A stretch of 39,723 nucleotides of DNA from a virus. Its lineage: Duplodnaviria > Heunggongvirae > Uroviricota > Caudoviricetes. A model generated the notes under the pieces. It was given only the letters and a program-made list of their open reading frames with translations. It was not told the origin of the DNA and made no database searches. The stretch lies in the IMG/VR virus record IMGVR_UViG_2537562231_000011; one strand, 5' to 3'. Positions 8,505 to 15,991 of this stretch are shown in pieces. A program made the position numbers and the translations under genes. The stretch's first letter is position 1. Each line of letters begins with the position of its first letter.

Positions 8505-10592
8505 ATGTTTGCTTCAGTTAAAGAACTGGTTGGATTACCGGGGATGCCGGGAACGGAGCAAGGCGTTCGCTATTCAATCAGGAAGTATGCAACCAGCGAA
8601 ACCAGCAGACGCCGCAAGAAAGGCGCTAAAGGTTTTGAATACAGCATTGACTGTTTACCTGAAGTGACACAGCAGGCATTACGCGAACGTTATGCCCTGC
8701 AACTGATGACGCAAAAAGCCGATGAATCACCGGCTCCGGTGGTGACAAAGGCCAGACGCTCACCTGCCGTGGTTGATGCGGTGGAGGCATATCGCGGATC
8801 ACCCCAACTGATGGTCGAACGCCTCAATGCCCTGACTGAAAACCAGCGCCAGGTGGCAGACGCACGCATTGCGATCGTCAGTGAGGTGCTGAAATTCACG
8901 CAACAACCCGGTTTCAGCTGCGCTAAAGCTATCCGGTTCCTCGTTAACAGCCTGGCACGATCACAACTGGACGAGCGCATTGTGGCAATGGTTGAGACGG
9001 CGAACGCCAAAAAGGGAAACAGCCGCGCGTTGAGTGAAATCACGCTGAAACGCTGGATTGCGGCCTTTAACAAGGCACAGAACGCCGCTGAACGCCTGCT
9101 TTTACTGGCACCGGGTAAACGCCAGGAAATAAAAGCCGAAGATATTAACTGGCTGCCCGAATTTCTGGCGCAGTATCGCCAGTCAAACGGCCGACCAATG
9201 ACCGAGGCTTACGAGGATTTTGTTGCTGAATGGCAGCACCGGCACGCTGATGAGCCTTATATGCTCGATATCATGCCCTCTTATGACACCATTCGCCGCG
9301 CAATGAAGAAACTGCCGGAAGTGGTGAAACAAAAAGGCCGGGTAACTGGCAGTGAATACCGTCAGCTTGAGGGATTCACGCGCCGCGACTGGTCCAGAAT
9401 GCCGGTGAATTATGTCTGGATTGGTGACGGTCACGGCATGAAGCTGAAATGCGCGCACCCGGTTCACGGGCGGCCATTCGCACCGGAAGTGACCTTTGTT
9501 ATCGACGGTGGCACGCGCTTTGTGGTGGGCTGGAGCCTTGACCTGGCTGAAAATGTTTTCGCCGTAGCCGGTGCCATACAGCACGGTATTCGCCATCATG
9601 GCAAACCGTTTCTGTATTACTCGGATAATGGCTCCGGGGAAACCGCCGACGTCCTGGATAAGGAGATTGTGGGGATACTGCCACGACTGGGGATTAATCA
9701 CCCGACAGGGATTGCCGGTAATCCGCAGGGACGGGGCATTATCGAACGGCTTAACCGCACATTACCGATGCGCATAGCCCGTAAATACCGCACCTATTTC
9801 GGGAAAGGAGCAGATCGCGAGACGTTACGTAAAACCAACCGCGATTTACGCTCGGCATTCAGTGCCCTGCAACAGGGCAAACGGCTGAACGCCCGGCAGC
9901 AGTCAGCGATGCGTGATTTACCGTCCTGGTCTGAACTGATTGATGCCATTCGTGACGGTGTTGAGTGGTACAACAACCGGCCGCACGATGAATTACCCAT
10001 GAAGCCGAACGGTAAACATTACAGCCCGGCGGAGTTCAGAAAAAAACGCCTGGCGGAAGAGGACACGGAAATTGAATGGCTGTCCGATGTTGAACTGCGG
10101 GATATGTTCCGGCCGATGGTGGAGCGCCCTGTAAGACGCTGTGAAATACGCTGGCTGAATAATATTTACTACGCGCCCGAGCTGCGTGACGAGCATGGCC
10201 GTAAGGTACTTATCAGCTATGACATTCATGATGCCGAACGAATTACCGTGCGCCGCCCGGATGGCAGCGTGATTTGCGAGGCGGTATGGGACGGCAATAA
10301 ACGCGAAGCCTTCCCTGTCAGCGCGGAATACTACAAACAGCAGCAGCGCCTTAAAGGCATGCGTAAACGCGCAGAGGAAAAAATCCGTGATGCCGAGGAT
10401 GAGGTTGTCAACGTGCTGGAGCACAAGCCGCAGGAGCCCTGGCTGGAAAACATATACCGCCCTGTGGGTAATACGGTGACCGTTCAGCAACCGGTCGCTG
10501 ACGATGAACCTGATGAAGAATACGAGCGTAATTTCCAGCGGGGATTGCAACTGCTCGAAGCGAAATTAAAAGAAAGTGATCCGCTGGCCTGA
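8505..10592 (+). CDS. A: DDE transposase, MuA-like
   Basis: 695 aa (Mu A is ~663). Catalytic-core-like motifs WIGDGHG, YYSDNGSGE and ERLNRTLP in the order expected for the D, D, E triad. Confidence 0.9.
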   Translation: MFASVKELVGLPGMPGTEQGVRYSIRKYATSETSRRRKKGAKGFEYSIDCLPEVTQQALRERYALQLMTQKADESPAPVVTKARRSPAVVDAVEAYRGSPQLMVERLNALTENQRQVADARIAIVSEVLKFTQQPGFSCAKAIRFLVNSLARSQLDERIVAMVETANAKKGNSRALSEITLKRWIAAFNKAQNAAERLLLLAPGKRQEIKAEDINWLPEFLAQYRQSNGRPMTEAYEDFVAEWQHRHADEPYMLDIMPSYDTIRRAMKKLPEVVKQKGRVTGSEYRQLEGFTRRDWSRMPVNYVWIGDGHGMKLKCAHPVHGRPFAPEVTFVIDGGTRFVVGWSLDLAENVFAVAGAIQHGIRHHGKPFLYYSDNGSGETADVLDKEIVGILPRLGINHPTGIAGNPQGRGIIERLNRTLPMRIARKYRTYFGKGADRETLRKTNRDLRSAFSALQQGKRLNARQQSAMRDLPSWSELIDAIRDGVEWYNNRPHDELPMKPNGKHYSPAEFRKKRLAEEDTEIEWLSDVELRDMFRPMVERPVRRCEIRWLNNIYYAPELRDEHGRKVLISYDIHDAERITVRRPDGSVICEAVWDGNKREAFPVSAEYYKQQQRLKGMRKRAEEKIRDAEDEVVNVLEHKPQEPWLENIYRPVGNTVTVQQPVADDEPDEEYERNFQRGLQLLEAKLKESDPLA

Positions 10593-10673
10593 AATAAAAA
10601 ATAACCCGAGGGGTGACTCAGGTTATTTGAGGTTTCAGTCTCGGAGAATGCTGTCTCAAGCGAGGTGAATAAT

Positions 10674-11606
10674 ATGACCGATATTAACGATGTAATCAAG
10701 ACCATTGATGAACTTATTGATGGCGGCGTACTGACGCAGTATGCCATCGCCAGAGAGGCGGGAATTTCCGACGGCACATTATCGGCTTTCCGTAAGGGAA
10801 AATATAAAGGCGATAACGCTGCTGTGGCTGCTTCCCTGCGCTCCTGGTATGAGAACTGGAATAAACAAAGCGCACTGCCGGAACCGCCGCAGTTTGTGGA
10901 AACTCAGACAGTCCAGGAGCTGCGCGCACTGTTTCAGGCGGTTCGCCTGATGGGCTGTATTAACGTTATTGTGGGCGTACCGGGTGTGGGTAAAACGGCC
11001 ACTGCCCGTAATTACTGCCAGGAGCAACCAAACACCTGGATGATCACCCTGTCACCCGCGCACTCCAGCGTCACGGAGTGTCTGCTGGAGCTGGCCGATG
11101 CGCTGGGGATTGATTACACCCGCGCGAACAAAGGGGCATTATCCCGCGCCATCCGCCGTCGCCTGATGGGAACGCGTGGACTGGTGATTGTGGATGAGGC
11201 GGATCATCTTGGTATTGACGGTCTGGAGCAACTCCGGGCAATTCAGGACGCCACGGGGATCGGGATGGTGCTTATTGGTAACCCGCGCGGATTGTTTAAA
11301 GGTGGACGCCGCGCCTTTGATGATTTATCGCGCCTGTTCAGCCGTCTTGCCCGTACAAAACAACTTCGCAAGGCCAAAAAGGCGGATGTGCTGGCCATTG
11401 CCATGGCGTGGGGGATCAGTGGTGAGGCCGAGCTGGCCGTCATGCAGGCTATCGCTGAAAAGCCGGGAGCGTTACGCGTTCTGACACATACGCTTAACCA
11501 GGCGTGGCTCACCGCCAGCGGTGAAGGCGCGGCGCTGACAGAAAAACATATTAATGCGGCCTTTAAAGAGGTTTATACCAACCCTGAATTACTCTCACAG
11601 GTGTGA
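10674..11606 (+). CDS. B: Transposition ATPase / target DNA activator, MuB-like
   Basis: ATG at 10674 with GAGGTG ribosome-binding site (track starts at GTG 10665). Walker A GVPGVGKT and Walker B VIVDEADHL; close collinear match to Mu B as I recall it (EPPQFVETQT, KPGALR). Confidence 0.85.
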   Translation: MTDINDVIKTIDELIDGGVLTQYAIAREAGISDGTLSAFRKGKYKGDNAAVAASLRSWYENWNKQSALPEPPQFVETQTVQELRALFQAVRLMGCINVIVGVPGVGKTATARNYCQEQPNTWMITLSPAHSSVTECLLELADALGIDYTRANKGALSRAIRRRLMGTRGLVIVDEADHLGIDGLEQLRAIQDATGIGMVLIGNPRGLFKGGRRAFDDLSRLFSRLARTKQLRKAKKADVLAIAMAWGISGEAELAVMQAIAEKPGALRVLTHTLNQAWLTASGEGAALTEKHINAAFKEVYTNPELLSQV

Positions 11607-11608
11607 TT

Positions 11609-11830
11609 ATGGCGGTATTTAATATTCCTGATATTTACGGACGCTTTTACCTGGTTAATTTCGATAACGTGAAGGTGATTTCACTGGCCGAAAATAAAGA
11701 ATGTGGCGATTTACTTTTTGAATTTAATGACCGCACACGAATGGTGATATCTGCCGGACTTGATCGCGAAGGTGCGACAGAAGTTTACAGCGGAATATGC
11801 CGTTCTGTTGGTGCGAAACAAGTCAGCTAA
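11609..11830 (+). CDS. Hypothetical early protein
   Basis: 73 codons from ATG 11609 directly after the B stop; co-directional in the early operon. No recognisable domain. Confidence 0.35.
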   Translation: MAVFNIPDIYGRFYLVNFDNVKVISLAENKECGDLLFEFNDRTRMVISAGLDREGATEVYSGICRSVGAKQVS

Positions 11831-11842
11831 ATGAGGTGTTAT

Positions 11843-12097
11843 ATGAATATGCAATCCTGCGGTAACAAAATGAATTTATTCGACTCCCTGAACAGCGCGC
11901 GCCGTCTGACCGAACTTGCCGGTGCGGTACTGGAACGCAGTAAGCGCTATCCGCAACGTTTTGCACTGAAAACCACGCCGCCGGTAGGCAACGTGCAGGG
12001 AACCGGTGAAATTGAAATCACCATACAGACCAACGGCCTGCGCCGCCGTGTGAAGGCCACCCGCATCAGCGGCTGCACGGTTTACTGGGAGGTGTGA
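11843..12097 (+). CDS. Hypothetical early protein
   Basis: ATG at 11843 preceded by GAGGTG; 84 codons. No recognisable domain. Confidence 0.35.
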   Translation: MNMQSCGNKMNLFDSLNSARRLTELAGAVLERSKRYPQRFALKTTPPVGNVQGTGEIEITIQTNGLRRRVKATRISGCTVYWEV

Positions 12098-12172
12098 GGT
12101 GAAAAAAATCTCATTGCATGGGCGTGGTCGAGTGGTCTTATTGAGTTTGGTTACGTCCTGCCGGAAGGTGCA

Positions 12173-12379
12173 TTGCCGATAGTTGCCGGAAAGCCTGCCA
12201 CGGTACGGCATGTGATTGAGGTTATGGCGCGTCATGGACGTGATGAACAGGAGCAGTTACTGGTTCCGGGGATACCGGAAGCGGTGACGGAGGAAGAAGC
12301 CTTTAATGCCATGATTCGGTTCTGCCGTGAGGTTAGACGCCGGGTCAGTTATCCAAACAGAACGAGGACCAGAGGATGA
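12173..12379 (+). CDS. Hypothetical early protein (start uncertain; frame open from 12098)
   Basis: Co-directional ORF ending 4 bp inside the next gene; only non-ATG start candidates. Confidence 0.3.
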   Translation: MPIVAGKPATVRHVIEVMARHGRDEQEQLLVPGIPEAVTEEEAFNAMIRFCREVRRRVSYPNRTRTRG

Positions 12380-12648
12380 GTAAAGTCGTACGCATTATTT
12401 TCGAATACAAGGAAGATGTTATCTGCAAAAACTCTGATGGCAGCACGCACAGAGGGGTAAGTCTGGATATACGTTCAACCGGAATAAAGAAGAAAGATAA
12501 TGGACCCGCCATGATTTTTGGGGTGGTTATGCTGGCAGAAAGCAGAAACTTCGCAGAGTTTGTGGCAATGAAAGCCAGTGCATTCATGAAAGACAGAGGC
12601 ATGGCTTCCGGGGTTATTAACGGTAATGAATTTAATCAACAGGGGTAA
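12376..12648 (+). CDS. Hypothetical small protein, tandem paralogue 1 (MSKVVRIIFEYK...)
   Basis: ATG with AGAGG ribosome-binding site; visibly AT-rich sequence; N-terminus similar to the next ORF. Confidence 0.45.
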   Translation: MSKVVRIIFEYKEDVICKNSDGSTHRGVSLDIRSTGIKKKDNGPAMIFGVVMLAESRNFAEFVAMKASAFMKDRGMASGVINGNEFNQQG

Positions 12649-12652
12649 TTCC

Positions 12653-12946
12653 ATGAGCAAAGTACGCGTTATTTTTGAATTTAATCATGTTTCGCATGAC
12701 GAAAAGTTGGCAGGCAATGACTGTGTTGAAGTGCATGAAAAGATTGGAGTGGATGTGAAAACAGAACGTGATACGGATAACAGGCCGACGTCACTCTGTG
12801 ACGTTTATGCAAGTATTCTCCAGTATCACAGTCCTGCAATTATTCAGTTTCTCTCAGCGGAATTTCAGGCATCTGCACAGTCTTTTGGAGCGGATGCCAT
12901 CATTAAACGCCACCGCGTGCATAAAGCATCAGGCACACTGCAATAA
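12653..12946 (+). CDS. Hypothetical small protein, tandem paralogue 2 (MSKVRVIFEFNH...)
   Basis: ATG at 12653 with AGGGG ribosome-binding site; same N-terminal motif as the preceding ORF. Confidence 0.45.
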   Translation: MSKVRVIFEFNHVSHDEKLAGNDCVEVHEKIGVDVKTERDTDNRPTSLCDVYASILQYHSPAIIQFLSAEFQASAQSFGADAIIKRHRVHKASGTLQ

Positions 12947-12957
12947 GGAAAAACAAA

Positions 12958-13488
12958 ATGGCTAAACGCGTTACAAAATTAAAGGCCGCAGCCGAGGCGG
13001 CACCGCAGACCCGGGAAGAAGTCAGCCGTGATATCCGCACCCTGGGAGATATTCAGCGAGAGGCGCTGCGCCTGGAAACGGCGATGAATGACGAAGTGGC
13101 AGAAATCACCGCCCGTTATACGCCGCAGATTGAAAATCTTAAAAAGCAAATCAAAGTGCTTTTTAAAGGGATTCAGGACTGGTGCAAAACCAACCGTGAT
13201 GAGCTGACGAACGGCGGCAAAACCAAAACAGCCAATCTGACCACCGGAACGGTGTCATGGCGGCTGGGAACGCCATCATGCAGCGTCAGCCGTGATGTGG
13301 AAGGTGTGATTGAAATGCTGCGCCGTATGGGGCTTGAGCGTTTCATCCGCACGAAAGAGGAAGTGAACAAGGAAGCCGTCCTGGCGGAGCCGGATGCTGT
13401 GAAAGGCATTGCCGGTATCAAGGTGAATAAAGGCGCTGAAAGTTTTTATGTCGAGCCTTTTGAACAGGACGCCGGACTGAATAAATAA
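12958..13488 (+). CDS. gam: Host-nuclease inhibitor Gam (Mu Gam-like DNA-end-binding protein)
   Basis: 176 aa; motifs shared with Mu Gam as I recall it (NRDELTNGGKTKTANLTTGTVSWR, LERFIRTKEEVNKEA, FEQDAG). Confidence 0.85.
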   Translation: MAKRVTKLKAAAEAAPQTREEVSRDIRTLGDIQREALRLETAMNDEVAEITARYTPQIENLKKQIKVLFKGIQDWCKTNRDELTNGGKTKTANLTTGTVSWRLGTPSCSVSRDVEGVIEMLRRMGLERFIRTKEEVNKEAVLAEPDAVKGIAGIKVNKGAESFYVEPFEQDAGLNK

Positions 13489-13633
13489 CACCACATTAAT
13501 CAATTAAATATCACTTCATTTTAATTATGGCGCTCGCGTCAGGGGACTGCTTGCGCCTGAAAACAGAAAATAAGGGTTAAGAAATATGAAATACGTTTAT
13601 ATCGTCATTAATAATGTGGTGGGGAAATAAATC

Positions 13634-14167
13634 ATGATTGATGCAAAAGTGCTTGAAGGGGTTAAAAACTGGCTGTGTATTTATGGCCGCCTGACCTGCG
13701 GTGTACTGGCTGAAAAAATGAATATGCCGCCATCCTCCATGGTTTATTTTTTGCGTGATGCGGTTGATGCAGGCGTGCTGACGGAATGTAACGGTTTTTA
13801 TGATATTCCGCGCCCCCGCCCGGTGCAGCCGGTTCGTCGCAAATGCAGCCAGGAATCTGCGGCTGATGATGTTCAGTGGTGCGGCTTCAGAAAATCCCTG
13901 CCATGGATTGAGGGGCATGATATTCCGTCGATGGCGTGGGAATTTGCTCAGGGCGTTCTGACCTGTGAAACCGTTTATGTGGTGGCTGAAGTTGATGAGC
14001 AGGCCATGAAAGAAGGCGTGCCCCAGTTTGTGATGGCGTATATCGACATACGCCTGGGCGTCATTATCTGCGGTTTAAGCGGCTGGAATATCACTGAACA
14101 TGTTCTGCGCTACCTGATTGTTGACCGGACAGCAGCGCCTGCCGGGATATCTGCGGAGGTGGCGTAA
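13634..14167 (+). CDS. Hypothetical protein (177 aa)
   Basis: Co-directional ORF after an AT-rich 145-bp gap; no recognisable domain. Confidence 0.4.
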   Translation: MIDAKVLEGVKNWLCIYGRLTCGVLAEKMNMPPSSMVYFLRDAVDAGVLTECNGFYDIPRPRPVQPVRRKCSQESAADDVQWCGFRKSLPWIEGHDIPSMAWEFAQGVLTCETVYVVAEVDEQAMKEGVPQFVMAYIDIRLGVIICGLSGWNITEHVLRYLIVDRTAAPAGISAEVA

Positions 14168-15566: not shown

Positions 15567-15702
15567 GCAAATTGTTGAATGTCCCACCTGTGGAAATGAG
15601 GACCCGGAGTATCTGAAAGAGTGCCCACATTGTGGTGAGATAAAATGTAACCACTGCGATATGGGCGACGACACTGCATGTATAAATTGTGAGGATGAAT
15701 AA
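15559..15702 (+). CDS. Small zinc-ribbon protein (47 aa, four CxxC pairs)
   Basis: Own translation: MDEQIVECPTCGNEDPEYLKECPHCGEIKCNHCDMGDDTACINCEDE. Below the ORF-track length cut-off; start overlaps upstream gene. Confidence 0.4.
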   Translation: MDEQIVECPTCGNEDPEYLKECPHCGEIKCNHCDMGDDTACINCEDE

Positions 15703-15703
15703 T

Positions 15704-15991
15704 ATGGAAAAAGAAATCAAATTTGCGCCTAAATCTATCGACGAAGAACTGGCTAAAATCGGCATGCTTGAACGTATGCGGGACATTATCGAATATGCGA
15801 TAAAAGAAAATCTTGCAGCCAGAGAAGCCCTTTTGATAATGGAGCGGGAGATTAACCTGATTAAGGATGCTGTATCTCTGGATAATAAAATAGCCCGCGA
15901 GGAATACGTTCGCCGTAGGCTCGGTGTTGATGGTTCAGCAATTCTTACATCTGAACATTATGCAAAAATTTTTAATCTTTTTCAGCGGTAA
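15704..15991 (+). CDS. Hypothetical small protein (95 aa, predicted helical)
   Basis: ATG at 15704 two bases after the previous stop; AT-rich; 3' end overlaps the convergent minus-strand gene. Confidence 0.4.
   Translation: MEKEIKFAPKSIDEELAKIGMLERMRDIIEYAIKENLAAREALLIMEREINLIKDAVSLDNKIAREEYVRRRLGVDGSAILTSEHYAKIFNLFQR

What the first reader, a model, noticed from the sequence alone, without database searches (positions are those of the whole stretch)
12376..12946. AT-rich island with two tandem paralogous small genes
Two adjacent ~90-aa genes share an N-terminal motif (MSKVVRIIFEYK / MSKVRVIFEFNH) and sit in sequence visibly more AT-rich than the flanks. That points to separately acquired cargo that then duplicated, the kind of locus where anti-defence or host-takeover genes are usually found.
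Basis: partly seen in the sequence, partly recalled or inferred. Interest (0 to 1): 0.55.

Follow-up and report, generated by a model that had tools for sequence, protein, structure and literature searches.

The report
Two diverged small Mu-phage early genes
Two neighbouring small genes in the early operon of a Mu-like prophage of E. coli are real, AT-rich and distantly related to each other, but they are old, fast-diverging parts of the phage's known "semi-essential" region with unknown function, not a fresh foreign island.

Summary
Gene A (12376-12648, 90 aa) and gene B (12653-12946, 97 aa) have 43.3% GC, against 55.1% for the window and 51-54% in the 300-bp flanks. They are distant homologues: about 22% identity, hhalign probability 94%, and the same predicted beta-hairpin-plus-helix topology.

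The window is a Mu-like transposable prophage. A and B lie in its early operon between Kil/p93 and Gam, which is the semi-essential region. They are tightly packed, and no own promoter or terminator was detected.

B occupies a conserved slot directly upstream of Gam or DUF3164 in E. coli, Salmonella and Serratia Mu-like prophages. It is the fastest-diverging syntenic gene there. A is an extra paralogue found only in E. coli/Shigella lineages.

Both are under purifying selection (dN/dS 0.30 and 0.45, Gam 0.10). Both exist as old allele classes swapped independently of their flanks (B dS 0.88 where the adjacent Gam has 0.085).

Pfam, NCBIfam, PADLOC, PDB and BFVD give no informative match. They belong to PHROGs 4107 and 2230, both of unknown function.

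Best reading: small non-enzymatic early proteins, probably aimed at host factors. An anti-defence role is plausible but untested. Interest is modest.

The parts
12376..12648 (+). Gene A: 90-aa basic protein (pI 9.3), PHROG 4107, lineage-specific paralogue of B
   Evidence: ORF. RefSeq CDS WP_000049428.1. phrog_4107 E = 1.7e-54. dN/dS 0.30 over 18 alleles. pI. AF2 gives beta-hairpin plus long helix at pLDDT 57.7.
12653..12946 (+). Gene B: 97-aa protein (pI 6.3), PHROG 2230, the conserved slot gene directly upstream of gam
   Evidence: ORF. RefSeq CDS WP_000049310.1. phrog_2230 E = 1.8e-38. dN/dS 0.45 over 20 alleles. AF2 pLDDT 82.6, beta-beta-alpha-alpha. Syntenic relatives in Salmonella and Serratia.
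12364..12379 (+). Shine-Dalgarno GAGGA (12364-12368) and the ATGA overlap: A's start (12376-12378) overlaps the stop of the upstream p93 gene (12377-12379), suggesting translational coupling
   Evidence: Read directly from the sequence.
12641..12655 (+). Shine-Dalgarno AGGGG (12641-12645) inside the 3' end of A, A's stop TAA (12646-12648), B's start ATG (12653-12655)
   Evidence: Read directly from the sequence.
12388..12406 (+). First copy of a 19-nt direct repeat (GTACGCATTATTTTCGAAT) encoding the shared N-terminal strand VRIIFE
   Evidence: the repeat finder family D2, 89% identity, spacing 274 nt. The first 12 codons are 82% identical at nucleotide level, against 27-48% for the rest.
12662..12680 (+). 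Second copy of the 19-nt direct repeat, in gene B
11831..12097 (+). Context: Kil-like septation inhibitor gene
   Evidence: phrog_2679 E = 7.8e-46. BLASTP to Mu Kil E = 1e-4.
12098..12379 (+). Context: p93 gene (PHROG 1518, labelled 'host nuclease inhibitor'). In this window its GTG start at 12099 is out of frame because of an A7 run.
12958..13488 (+). Context: Gam (Mu Gam-like DNA-end-binding host-nuclease inhibitor), 11 nt downstream of B
   Evidence: PF07352 E = 5.5e-42. 57% identical to Mu Gam.

Best explanation
A and B are two anciently diverged members of one small-protein family in the semi-essential early region of an enterobacterial Mu-like transposable prophage. B is the family's standard gene and always lies directly upstream of gam (or of the DUF3164 gene that replaces gam). 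A is an extra paralogue placed in front of B in E. coli/Shigella lineages.

Shown here: both genes sit in a run of same-strand, tightly packed early genes. A's start overlaps the upstream stop (ATGA), and B starts 4 nt after A's stop. The consensus scan finds no promoter or terminator of their own.

Inferred: they are transcribed on the long early transcript after infection or induction and are silent in the repressed lysogen.

Predicted: each folds into a long beta-hairpin packed against one or two helices. The conserved positions are hydrophobic core residues. There is no catalytic-type motif. The exposed sheet suggests they form homo- or hetero-oligomers.

Inferred mechanism: they act as stoichiometric binding proteins aimed at host factors during early lytic development, in the same class as their neighbours Kil and Gam. 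The target may be a variable host factor such as a defence or DNA-metabolism component.

Shown here: their diversity is maintained by cassette-like exchange of old alleles between related phages, not by recent acquisition.
For: Phage identity and position: MuA, MuB, Kil, Gam, Gp11_C, GemA and Mor lie in Mu order. Public records call the element a Mu-like phage.

Operon packing: read from the sequence. No promoter-like or terminator-like site on the + strand in 11400-13800, and the total number of hits is no higher than in shuffles.

Homology of A and B. Same predicted topology.

They are real coding genes. dN/dS is 0.30 for A and 0.45 for B, against 0.09-0.24 for the six neighbouring genes (Gam and Kil 0.10).

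B is syntenic and diverges fastest. Window against Salmonella/Serratia-type loci: B 33-41% identical, Gam 68-83%, MuB 62-79% (contexts).

A is lineage-specific. It is absent from L083, L085, L086, L088, L090 and L134, and present in L089 and L092.

Old alleles are swapped. B dS is 0.88 against Gam 0.085 in L090. A dS is 0.66 against B 0.05 and Gam 0.13 in L089. IMG/VR shows two B allele classes, about 92-100% and 57-60% identical.

No enzymatic signature: the invariant B-family columns are V6, F8, F10, Y52, I55, L56, E70 and G79.

Literature: in Mu the SE region is part of the long early transcript, is dispensable, holds 14 mostly unassigned ORFs and is lethal to the host (PMC3325207). [quoted passage not shown]

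Against: The A model has low confidence (pLDDT 57.7), so the shared fold rests on secondary-structure order and on profile similarity.

Elevated dN/dS and old alleles are also what weakly constrained small proteins in a recombining mosaic region would show, so an arms race is not demonstrated.

Early-only expression is inferred from a consensus scan and from analogy with Mu, not from data.
Confidence: 0.55

Rival explanations
1. A foreign AT-rich cargo gene, of the moron or anti-defence-island type, was recently inserted into this phage and then duplicated in tandem.
For: GC is 43% against about 52-54% in the flanks, and GC3 drops to 0.38-0.46. A 19-nt direct repeat lies at the two 5' ends. 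A is present in some related prophages and absent from others.
Against: A and B are only about 22% identical, and A is as far from the window's B as from any other B. B-like genes occupy the same slot, and are also AT-rich, in Salmonella and Serratia Mu-like prophages. A is in 229 and B in 233 E. coli records, against 233 records with this Gam type. No own promoter or terminator was found.
Confidence: 0.08
2. The proteins serve the phage's own DNA transactions rather than targeting host defences. They could be accessory factors for transposition, replication or DNA-end handling that work with Gam or DUF3164, like the classical non-essential Mu early functions that stimulate replication.
For: B lies invariably next to Gam or its DUF3164 replacement. 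A is basic (pI 9.3), which would suit nucleic-acid binding. Both are in the same operon as MuA and MuB.
Against: B diverges far faster than Gam, MuB or Kil (33-41% against 62-83% identity). B alleles swap while Gam stays 99% identical. That is hard to reconcile with a tight partnership with conserved phage proteins. B persists when Gam is replaced by DUF3164. No DNA-binding fold was detected.
Confidence: 0.2
3. A and B are unrelated small genes. The shared N-terminus is convergence or a nucleotide-level constraint, for example on translation initiation.
For: Most of the pairwise signal is in the first 12 residues (z drops from 6.1 to 2.2). HMM-to-sequence searches between the families are not significant: E = 0.05-4 in a small database. 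PHROGs keeps them as separate families.
Against: The profile-profile score without the N-terminus is still 5 SD above the column-shuffle null. The alignment is colinear over 62 columns at 94% probability. Secondary-structure order is identical in the two independent AF2 runs. Salmonella B-like proteins bridge the two (GISVRVRSQGL against GVSLDIRSTGI).
Confidence: 0.1
4. The ORFs are spurious, and the AT-rich segment is a non-coding regulatory or structural DNA or RNA element.
For: The region is AT-rich. The ORFs are short and have no Pfam match.
Against: pN is far below pS in the annotated frames. The ORFs are intact across hundreds of genomes. Shine-Dalgarno sites are correctly spaced. There is no Rfam match; the best hit has E = 0.42. 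No inverted repeats were found.
Confidence: 0.02

Closest known systems
PHROG families phrog_4107 (A) and phrog_2230 (B), both 'unknown function'
   Same: Full-length matches: E = 1.7e-54 and 1.8e-38. A and B are members of these catalogued families.
   Different: PHROGs treats them as two unrelated families. Here they come out as distant homologues.
Phage Mu semi-essential early region ORFs, especially gp7 (E6, 87 aa, MAKVIIEIKN...)
   Same: Same operon and same region between kil and gam, similar size and a similar N-terminal strand. Mu gp7 hits phrog_2230 weakly (E = 0.009). Its family aligns colinearly over 70 columns with the A+B profile: hhalign score 21.5 against a null of 10.6 +/- 2.0, 0 of 150. 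Mu gp7 is also AT-richer than its neighbours (42%).
   Different: hhalign probability is only 15% (and 0.2-6% against the single families). BLAST finds nothing. No structure comparison was possible. In Mu two other genes (gp8, gp9) separate gp7 from gam. The relationship is suggestive, not established, and Mu gp7 itself has no known function.
Accessory ORFs in 'regions of genomic plasticity' of Pseudomonas aeruginosa Mu-like phages, including the anti-CRISPR locus (PMC4378225)
   Same: Small ORFs (34-100 codons) at fixed positions between conserved genes, mostly in the left arm. They are variable between otherwise syntenic phages, and some coincide with GC valleys.
   Different: There is no sequence or fold similarity. 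The anti-CRISPR region is a different locus from this one. B here is always present in its slot rather than present or absent. Function here is untested.
Lambdoid-phage morons
   Same: Small accessory genes with deviant base composition between conserved genes.
   Different: By the usual definition (my own knowledge), morons carry their own promoter and terminator and are expressed from the prophage. Neither signal is detectable here, and the genes are packed inside the early lytic operon.
Neighbouring early host-directed proteins Kil and Gam
   Same: Same transcript, small size, dispensable for growth and directed at host processes. Septation for Kil and RecBCD/DNA ends for Gam are the functions given by the annotations.
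   Different: There is no homology. Kil and Gam are much more conserved (dN/dS 0.10; 43-83% identity across genera, against 33-41% for B).

Membership tests
phrog_4107 (gene A) / phrog_2230 (gene B) | Significant full-length match to the family HMM | tested here: met
   E = 1.7e-54 (residues 1-90 on profile 1-90/90) and E = 1.8e-38 (residues 3-97 on profile 1-88/89).
Single A+B superfamily (paralogy) | Profile-profile similarity beyond the N-terminal motif, above an empirical null | tested here: met
   hhalign probability 94%, E = 1e-7, 62 columns. Without the N-terminus the score is 21.8 against a null of 10.8 +/- 2.2, 0 of 200.
Single A+B superfamily (paralogy) | Same three-dimensional fold | tested here: inconclusive
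   Both AF2 models have the same beta-hairpin-then-helix order, but A's model has pLDDT 57.7. No structure superposition tool was available.
Mu gp7/E6 family (phrog_10252) | Significant sequence or profile match | tested here: inconclusive
   BLAST finds nothing. hhalign probability is 0.2-15%, though the score exceeds the shuffle null. Mu gp7 against phrog_2230 gives E = 0.009.
Mu-like semi-essential early region gene | Located between the transposition genes A/B and gemA/mor, on the same strand, within the early operon of a Mu-like phage | tested here: met
   Gene order is MuA, MuB, p75, Kil, p93, A, B, Gam, Gp11, Gp12..., GemA, Mor.
Mu-like semi-essential early region gene | Dispensable for phage growth | not testable with these tools
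   Natural variants lacking A exist (L090). An IS66 element lies directly downstream of the A-type gene in L091, in a prophage whose transposase is frameshifted. No growth data are available.
Moron | Own promoter and terminator flanking the gene | tested here: not met
   No sigma-70-like promoter or intrinsic terminator on the + strand in 11400-13800. This is a consensus scan only.
Moron | Base composition deviating from the flanks | tested here: met
   43.3% against 51-54% GC.
Known anti-defence or defence proteins | Sequence or fold similarity to a characterised member | tested here: not met
Known anti-defence or defence proteins | Inhibition of a host defence system | not testable with these tools
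   This needs an experiment.
Toxin-antitoxin pair | Match to TA families, or an own promoter with autoregulation | tested here: not met
   No family hits. The two proteins are homologues of each other, and there is no own promoter.

The most novel reading that the evidence does not exclude
A and B, and perhaps Mu gp7/E6, would define a previously unrecognised superfamily of small beta-hairpin/helix proteins. These would be encoded at a fixed slot next to gam in enterobacterial Mu-like phages and would act as allele-specific inhibitors, or decoys, of variable host defence or DNA-repair components. The deep B1/B2 allele classes and the extra A copy would then reflect frequency-dependent selection for different host targets. 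That would be an early-operon counterpart of the anti-CRISPR loci of Pseudomonas Mu-like phages.
Probability: 0.25. Interest if true: 0.6.

Novelty: new member of a known kind. Interest (0 to 1): 0.35.

Why it matters
The semi-essential early region of Mu-type phages has been known for decades to be dispensable, harmful to the host and full of unassigned small ORFs. Only a few of its genes (kil, gam, gemA) have functions.

This work adds three points:
- One slot, directly upstream of gam, is filled throughout enterobacterial Mu-like prophages by a single fast-diverging protein family.
- Two PHROG families are really one.
- Old alleles are exchanged while the flanks stay nearly identical.

That gives a concrete, cheap candidate for host-takeover or anti-defence screens in a phage carried by about 4% of complete E. 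coli genomes, including many O157:H7 strains.

It is not surprising to a specialist, because small variable early genes are expected here. No function is established.

Tried and rejected
- Direct homology to phage Mu proteins by BLASTP: none for A or B.
- tblastn against 50,697 phage records, even at E <= 10: only two Stx phages that carry the same inserted Mu-like element.
- Pfam, NCBIfam and PADLOC: nothing.
- PDB sequence search with profiles: nothing below E = 0.7.
- Exhaustive HMMER scan of 1.84 billion representative proteins with the B profile: only 10 hits, 4 of them informative remote members. The A family did not appear among them, so homology had to be shown by profile-profile comparison.
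- The AFDB50 library was unavailable.
- The A model was too poor (pLDDT 57.7) to use for a fold search.
- Link to Mu gp7 and to the tandem 71-aa and 76-aa ORFs of locus L054: not established.
- Rfam and inverted-repeat searches for a non-coding element: nothing.
- Literature searches by protein accession and by Mu SE-region terms: no functional study of these proteins.

Full report
**What the window is**

The window holds two elements. Positions 1 to about 7307 carry morphogenesis genes of a lambdoid/HK97-like siphovirus: portal, head completion, tail tube and a tape-measure gene that stops short. From about 7.4 kb onward it is a Mu-like transposable prophage. Its gene order is repressor (minus strand, 7541-8086), MuA (8505-10592), MuB (10665-11606), a 75-aa ORF, a Kil-like gene, a 93-aa ORF (PHROG 1518), gene A, gene B, Gam (12958-13488), Gp11-like, Gp12-like, and further on GemA, Mor, lysozyme and late genes. 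The same DNA occurs in GenBank Stx-phage records, annotated as "region of the inserted Bacteriophage Mu-like phage". It also occurs in 233 records of 5,426 complete E. coli genomes, where A and B are "hypothetical protein".

**Checking the observation**

The coordinates are exact. A is 12376-12648 (90 aa) and B is 12653-12946 (97 aa). The longer mechanical ORF from 12626 is not the gene.

The region has 43.3% GC, against 55.1% for the window, 53.7% in the left flank and 51.3% in the right flank. GC3 falls to 0.46 and 0.38, against 0.57-0.65 in the neighbours. The region is in the 3rd percentile of all 571-bp windows. It is not unique, though. The early region as a whole has lower GC (50.9%) than the late region (57.0%) and contains other low-GC small genes: 11603-11830 at 41.7% and 15689-15991 at 39.6%.

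The two proteins are 22% identical by BLASTP (E = 6e-4). In pairwise shuffles most of that signal comes from the first 12 residues (z = 6.1 with them, 2.2 without).

Homologue collection gave narrow families. A is found in E. coli/Shigella only. B is found in E. coli/Shigella plus four remote clusters from Salmonella, Serratia and one metagenome-derived assembly. With these remote members the A-family and B-family profiles align colinearly over 62 columns at hhalign probability 94%, E = 1e-7. The real score is 43.0, against 11.2 +/- 2.4 for column-shuffled profiles (0 of 200). With the N-terminal motif cut off, it is 21.8 against 10.8 +/- 2.2 (0 of 200).

AF2 models were made from separate alignments. 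Both give the same order of elements. B has strands 4-21 and 24-39 and helices 48-58 and 60-77 at pLDDT 82.6. A has strands 6-18 and 24-35 and a helix 44-73, but at pLDDT 57.7 only.

**Anatomy**

The genes are packed as in an operon. The Shine-Dalgarno GAGGA lies 7 nt before A's ATG, and that ATG overlaps the stop of the upstream gene (ATGA). The Shine-Dalgarno AGGGG lies inside A's 3' end, 7 nt before B's ATG, which follows A's stop by 4 nt. Gam starts 11 nt after B's stop. The consensus scan finds no promoter-like or terminator-like site on the + strand between 11400 and 13800. There is no Rfam match and no inverted repeat.

The only internal repeat is a 19-nt direct repeat (89% identical, 274 nt apart) that encodes the shared N-terminal strand. 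The first 12 codons are 82% identical at nucleotide level, and the rest is 27-48% identical.

Across 18-20 distinct alleles from about 35 related loci, pN is well below pS. dN/dS is 0.30 for A and 0.45 for B, so both are real coding genes. They are less constrained than Gam (0.10), Kil (0.10) or p93 (0.09).

A is basic (pI 9.3) and B is slightly acidic (pI 6.3). The invariant columns of the B family are hydrophobic core positions plus one Glu and one Gly, with no catalytic-type pattern.

**Comparative picture**

All related loci are Mu-like prophages. B-like genes always occupy the slot directly upstream of Gam, or of the DUF3164 gene that replaces Gam:
- Salmonella, L083 and L134: Kil, p93-like, B, DUF3164.
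- Salmonella, L086: Kil, p93-like, B, Gam.
- L088: Kil, B, Gam.
- Serratia, L085: Kil, small zinc-ribbon ORF, B, Gam.
- E. coli CI5, L090: Kil, B, Gam.

A is present only in E. coli/Shigella-type loci (the window, L089, L092), always directly in front of B.

B is the most divergent syntenic gene. Between the window and the Salmonella/Serratia-type loci it is 33-41% identical, against 68-83% for Gam, 62-79% for MuB and 43-75% for Kil. B-like genes are AT-richer than their loci everywhere (41-50% against 50-56% GC).

Within E. coli, presence is nearly universal for this phage lineage. Gam at >=90% identity is in 233 records, B in 233 and A in 229. The alleles, however, are deeply split and exchanged independently of the flanks:
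- L090: Gam 99% identical to the window, B 60% identical; dS 0.88 for B against 0.085 for Gam.
- L089: A 57% identical, B 93%, Gam 97%; dS 0.66 for A, 0.05 for B and 0.13 for Gam.
- L092: a window-like A (81%) combined with the other B class (55%).

IMG/VR shows the same two B classes.

The high dS shows that these are old alleles moved by recombination. They are not the product of rapid in-place change.

**Interpretation**

The segment does have its own composition and its own history, and the genes are paralogues.

It is not a recent island, however:
- B is a conserved slot gene across genera.
- The A/B split is at least as deep as the split among B lineages.
- Both genes are near-core in this phage lineage.
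- They have no expression signals of their own, so they are not morons.

The locus is a typical part of the semi-essential early region of transposable phages. Published work describes that region as part of the long early transcript, dispensable, harmful to the host and full of small unassigned ORFs (PMC3325207; PMC8705779). The closest described analogue for the evolutionary pattern is the set of "regions of genomic plasticity" in Pseudomonas Mu-like phages. There, small accessory ORFs sit at fixed sites, some in GC valleys, and one such region holds anti-CRISPRs (PMC4378225).

**Mechanism**

Shown:
- operon packing and start/stop overlap;
- purifying selection;
- conserved synteny;
- allele exchange;

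Inferred:
- expression only after infection or induction;
- oligomerisation through the exposed hairpin sheet;
- action by stoichiometric binding to host factors.

Early expression, neighbours aimed at the host (Kil, Gam), the fastest divergence in the operon and old alleles that keep being exchanged between phages together make a variable host target the most likely reading. That target could be a defence or DNA-metabolism component.

I hold that reading with only moderate confidence. A phage-intrinsic accessory role next to Gam is the main rival. The mismatch between B's divergence and Gam's conservation weighs against it.

**Comparison with the known**

A and B are members of PHROGs 4107 and 2230, both of unknown function. 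Recognising these two families as one is new but minor.

Mu gp7 (E6) may be a very distant relative. It hits phrog_2230 at E = 0.009, and its family aligns colinearly with the A+B profile above the shuffle null, but at only 15% probability. I do not file A and B with it.

No membership in any anti-defence, defence or toxin-antitoxin family is supported.

**Verdict**

The feature is real and correctly observed. It is an ordinary kind of locus, a variable small-gene slot in the Mu semi-essential region. Two modestly interesting details emerged: a cryptic paralogue pair, and deep allele classes next to nearly identical flanks. Function remains unknown. The anti-defence or host-takeover reading is plausible and cheap to test.

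Noticed in passing
window 1-7400: The first 7.3 kb belong to a different, lambdoid/HK97-like prophage: portal 327-1529, head completion 2921-3271, HK97-gp10-like 3268-3714, Ig-domain tail tube 4122-4838. Its tape-measure gene (5580-7307) matches only positions 1-177 of the 295-position HK97_TLTM model. The Mu-like prophage therefore appears to be inserted into the tape-measure gene of another prophage. This agrees with the GenBank note in Stx phages LC727881 and LC727895.
   Followed up: partly
window 12095-12115: The p93 gene (PHROG 1518, labelled 'host nuclease inhibitor') has its GTG start at 12099 out of frame, because a homopolymer is A7 here. Of 24 related loci, 20 have A8 (in frame, MKKNLIAWAWSS...), one has A9 and two have the run interrupted (AAACGAAA). 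RefSeq instead calls a shorter CDS starting at an ATT codon (12113). This could be a slippage-prone tract or a 1-nt deletion that inactivates or down-tunes the gene.
   Followed up: partly
L085 4823-5001 (Serratia Mu-like prophage): An uncalled small ORF with two CxxC-type motifs (MSNFKPCPFCGDTQLG...SCQTCGAQ...) sits between Kil and the B-like gene. It looks like a zinc ribbon and, from memory, resembles Lar-type restriction-alleviation proteins. This was not tested.
   Followed up: no
L054 3515-3960 (IMG/VR contig, Gam 58% identical): Another Mu-like phage carries two tandem small ORFs (71 aa MSKIVIELKD... and 76 aa MAKQVITITLDD...) in the same slot between a p93-like gene and Gam. They have no detectable profile similarity to A or B. 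The first shows a weak N-terminal match to the Mu gp7 family (hhalign E = 1e-3 over 19 columns).
   Followed up: partly
L083 5303-5941 and L134 2796-3440 (Salmonella Mu-like prophages): In some Salmonella Mu-like prophages Gam is replaced at the same position by a DUF3164 protein (about 212 aa), followed by DUF5420. The upstream B-like gene is retained.
   Followed up: no
L091 2826-5161 (E. coli 23CRST049): An IS66-family element (ISEc22) lies directly downstream of the A-type gene, whose C-terminus is altered. This is in a prophage whose transposase is frameshifted, that is, a decaying copy.
   Followed up: no
window 11603-11830 and 15689-15991: Other small early-region genes are also markedly AT-rich (41.7% and 39.6% GC; PHROG 3375 and an unassigned 100-aa ORF). 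Low GC is therefore a recurrent property of small accessory genes in this early region and not peculiar to A and B.
   Followed up: partly
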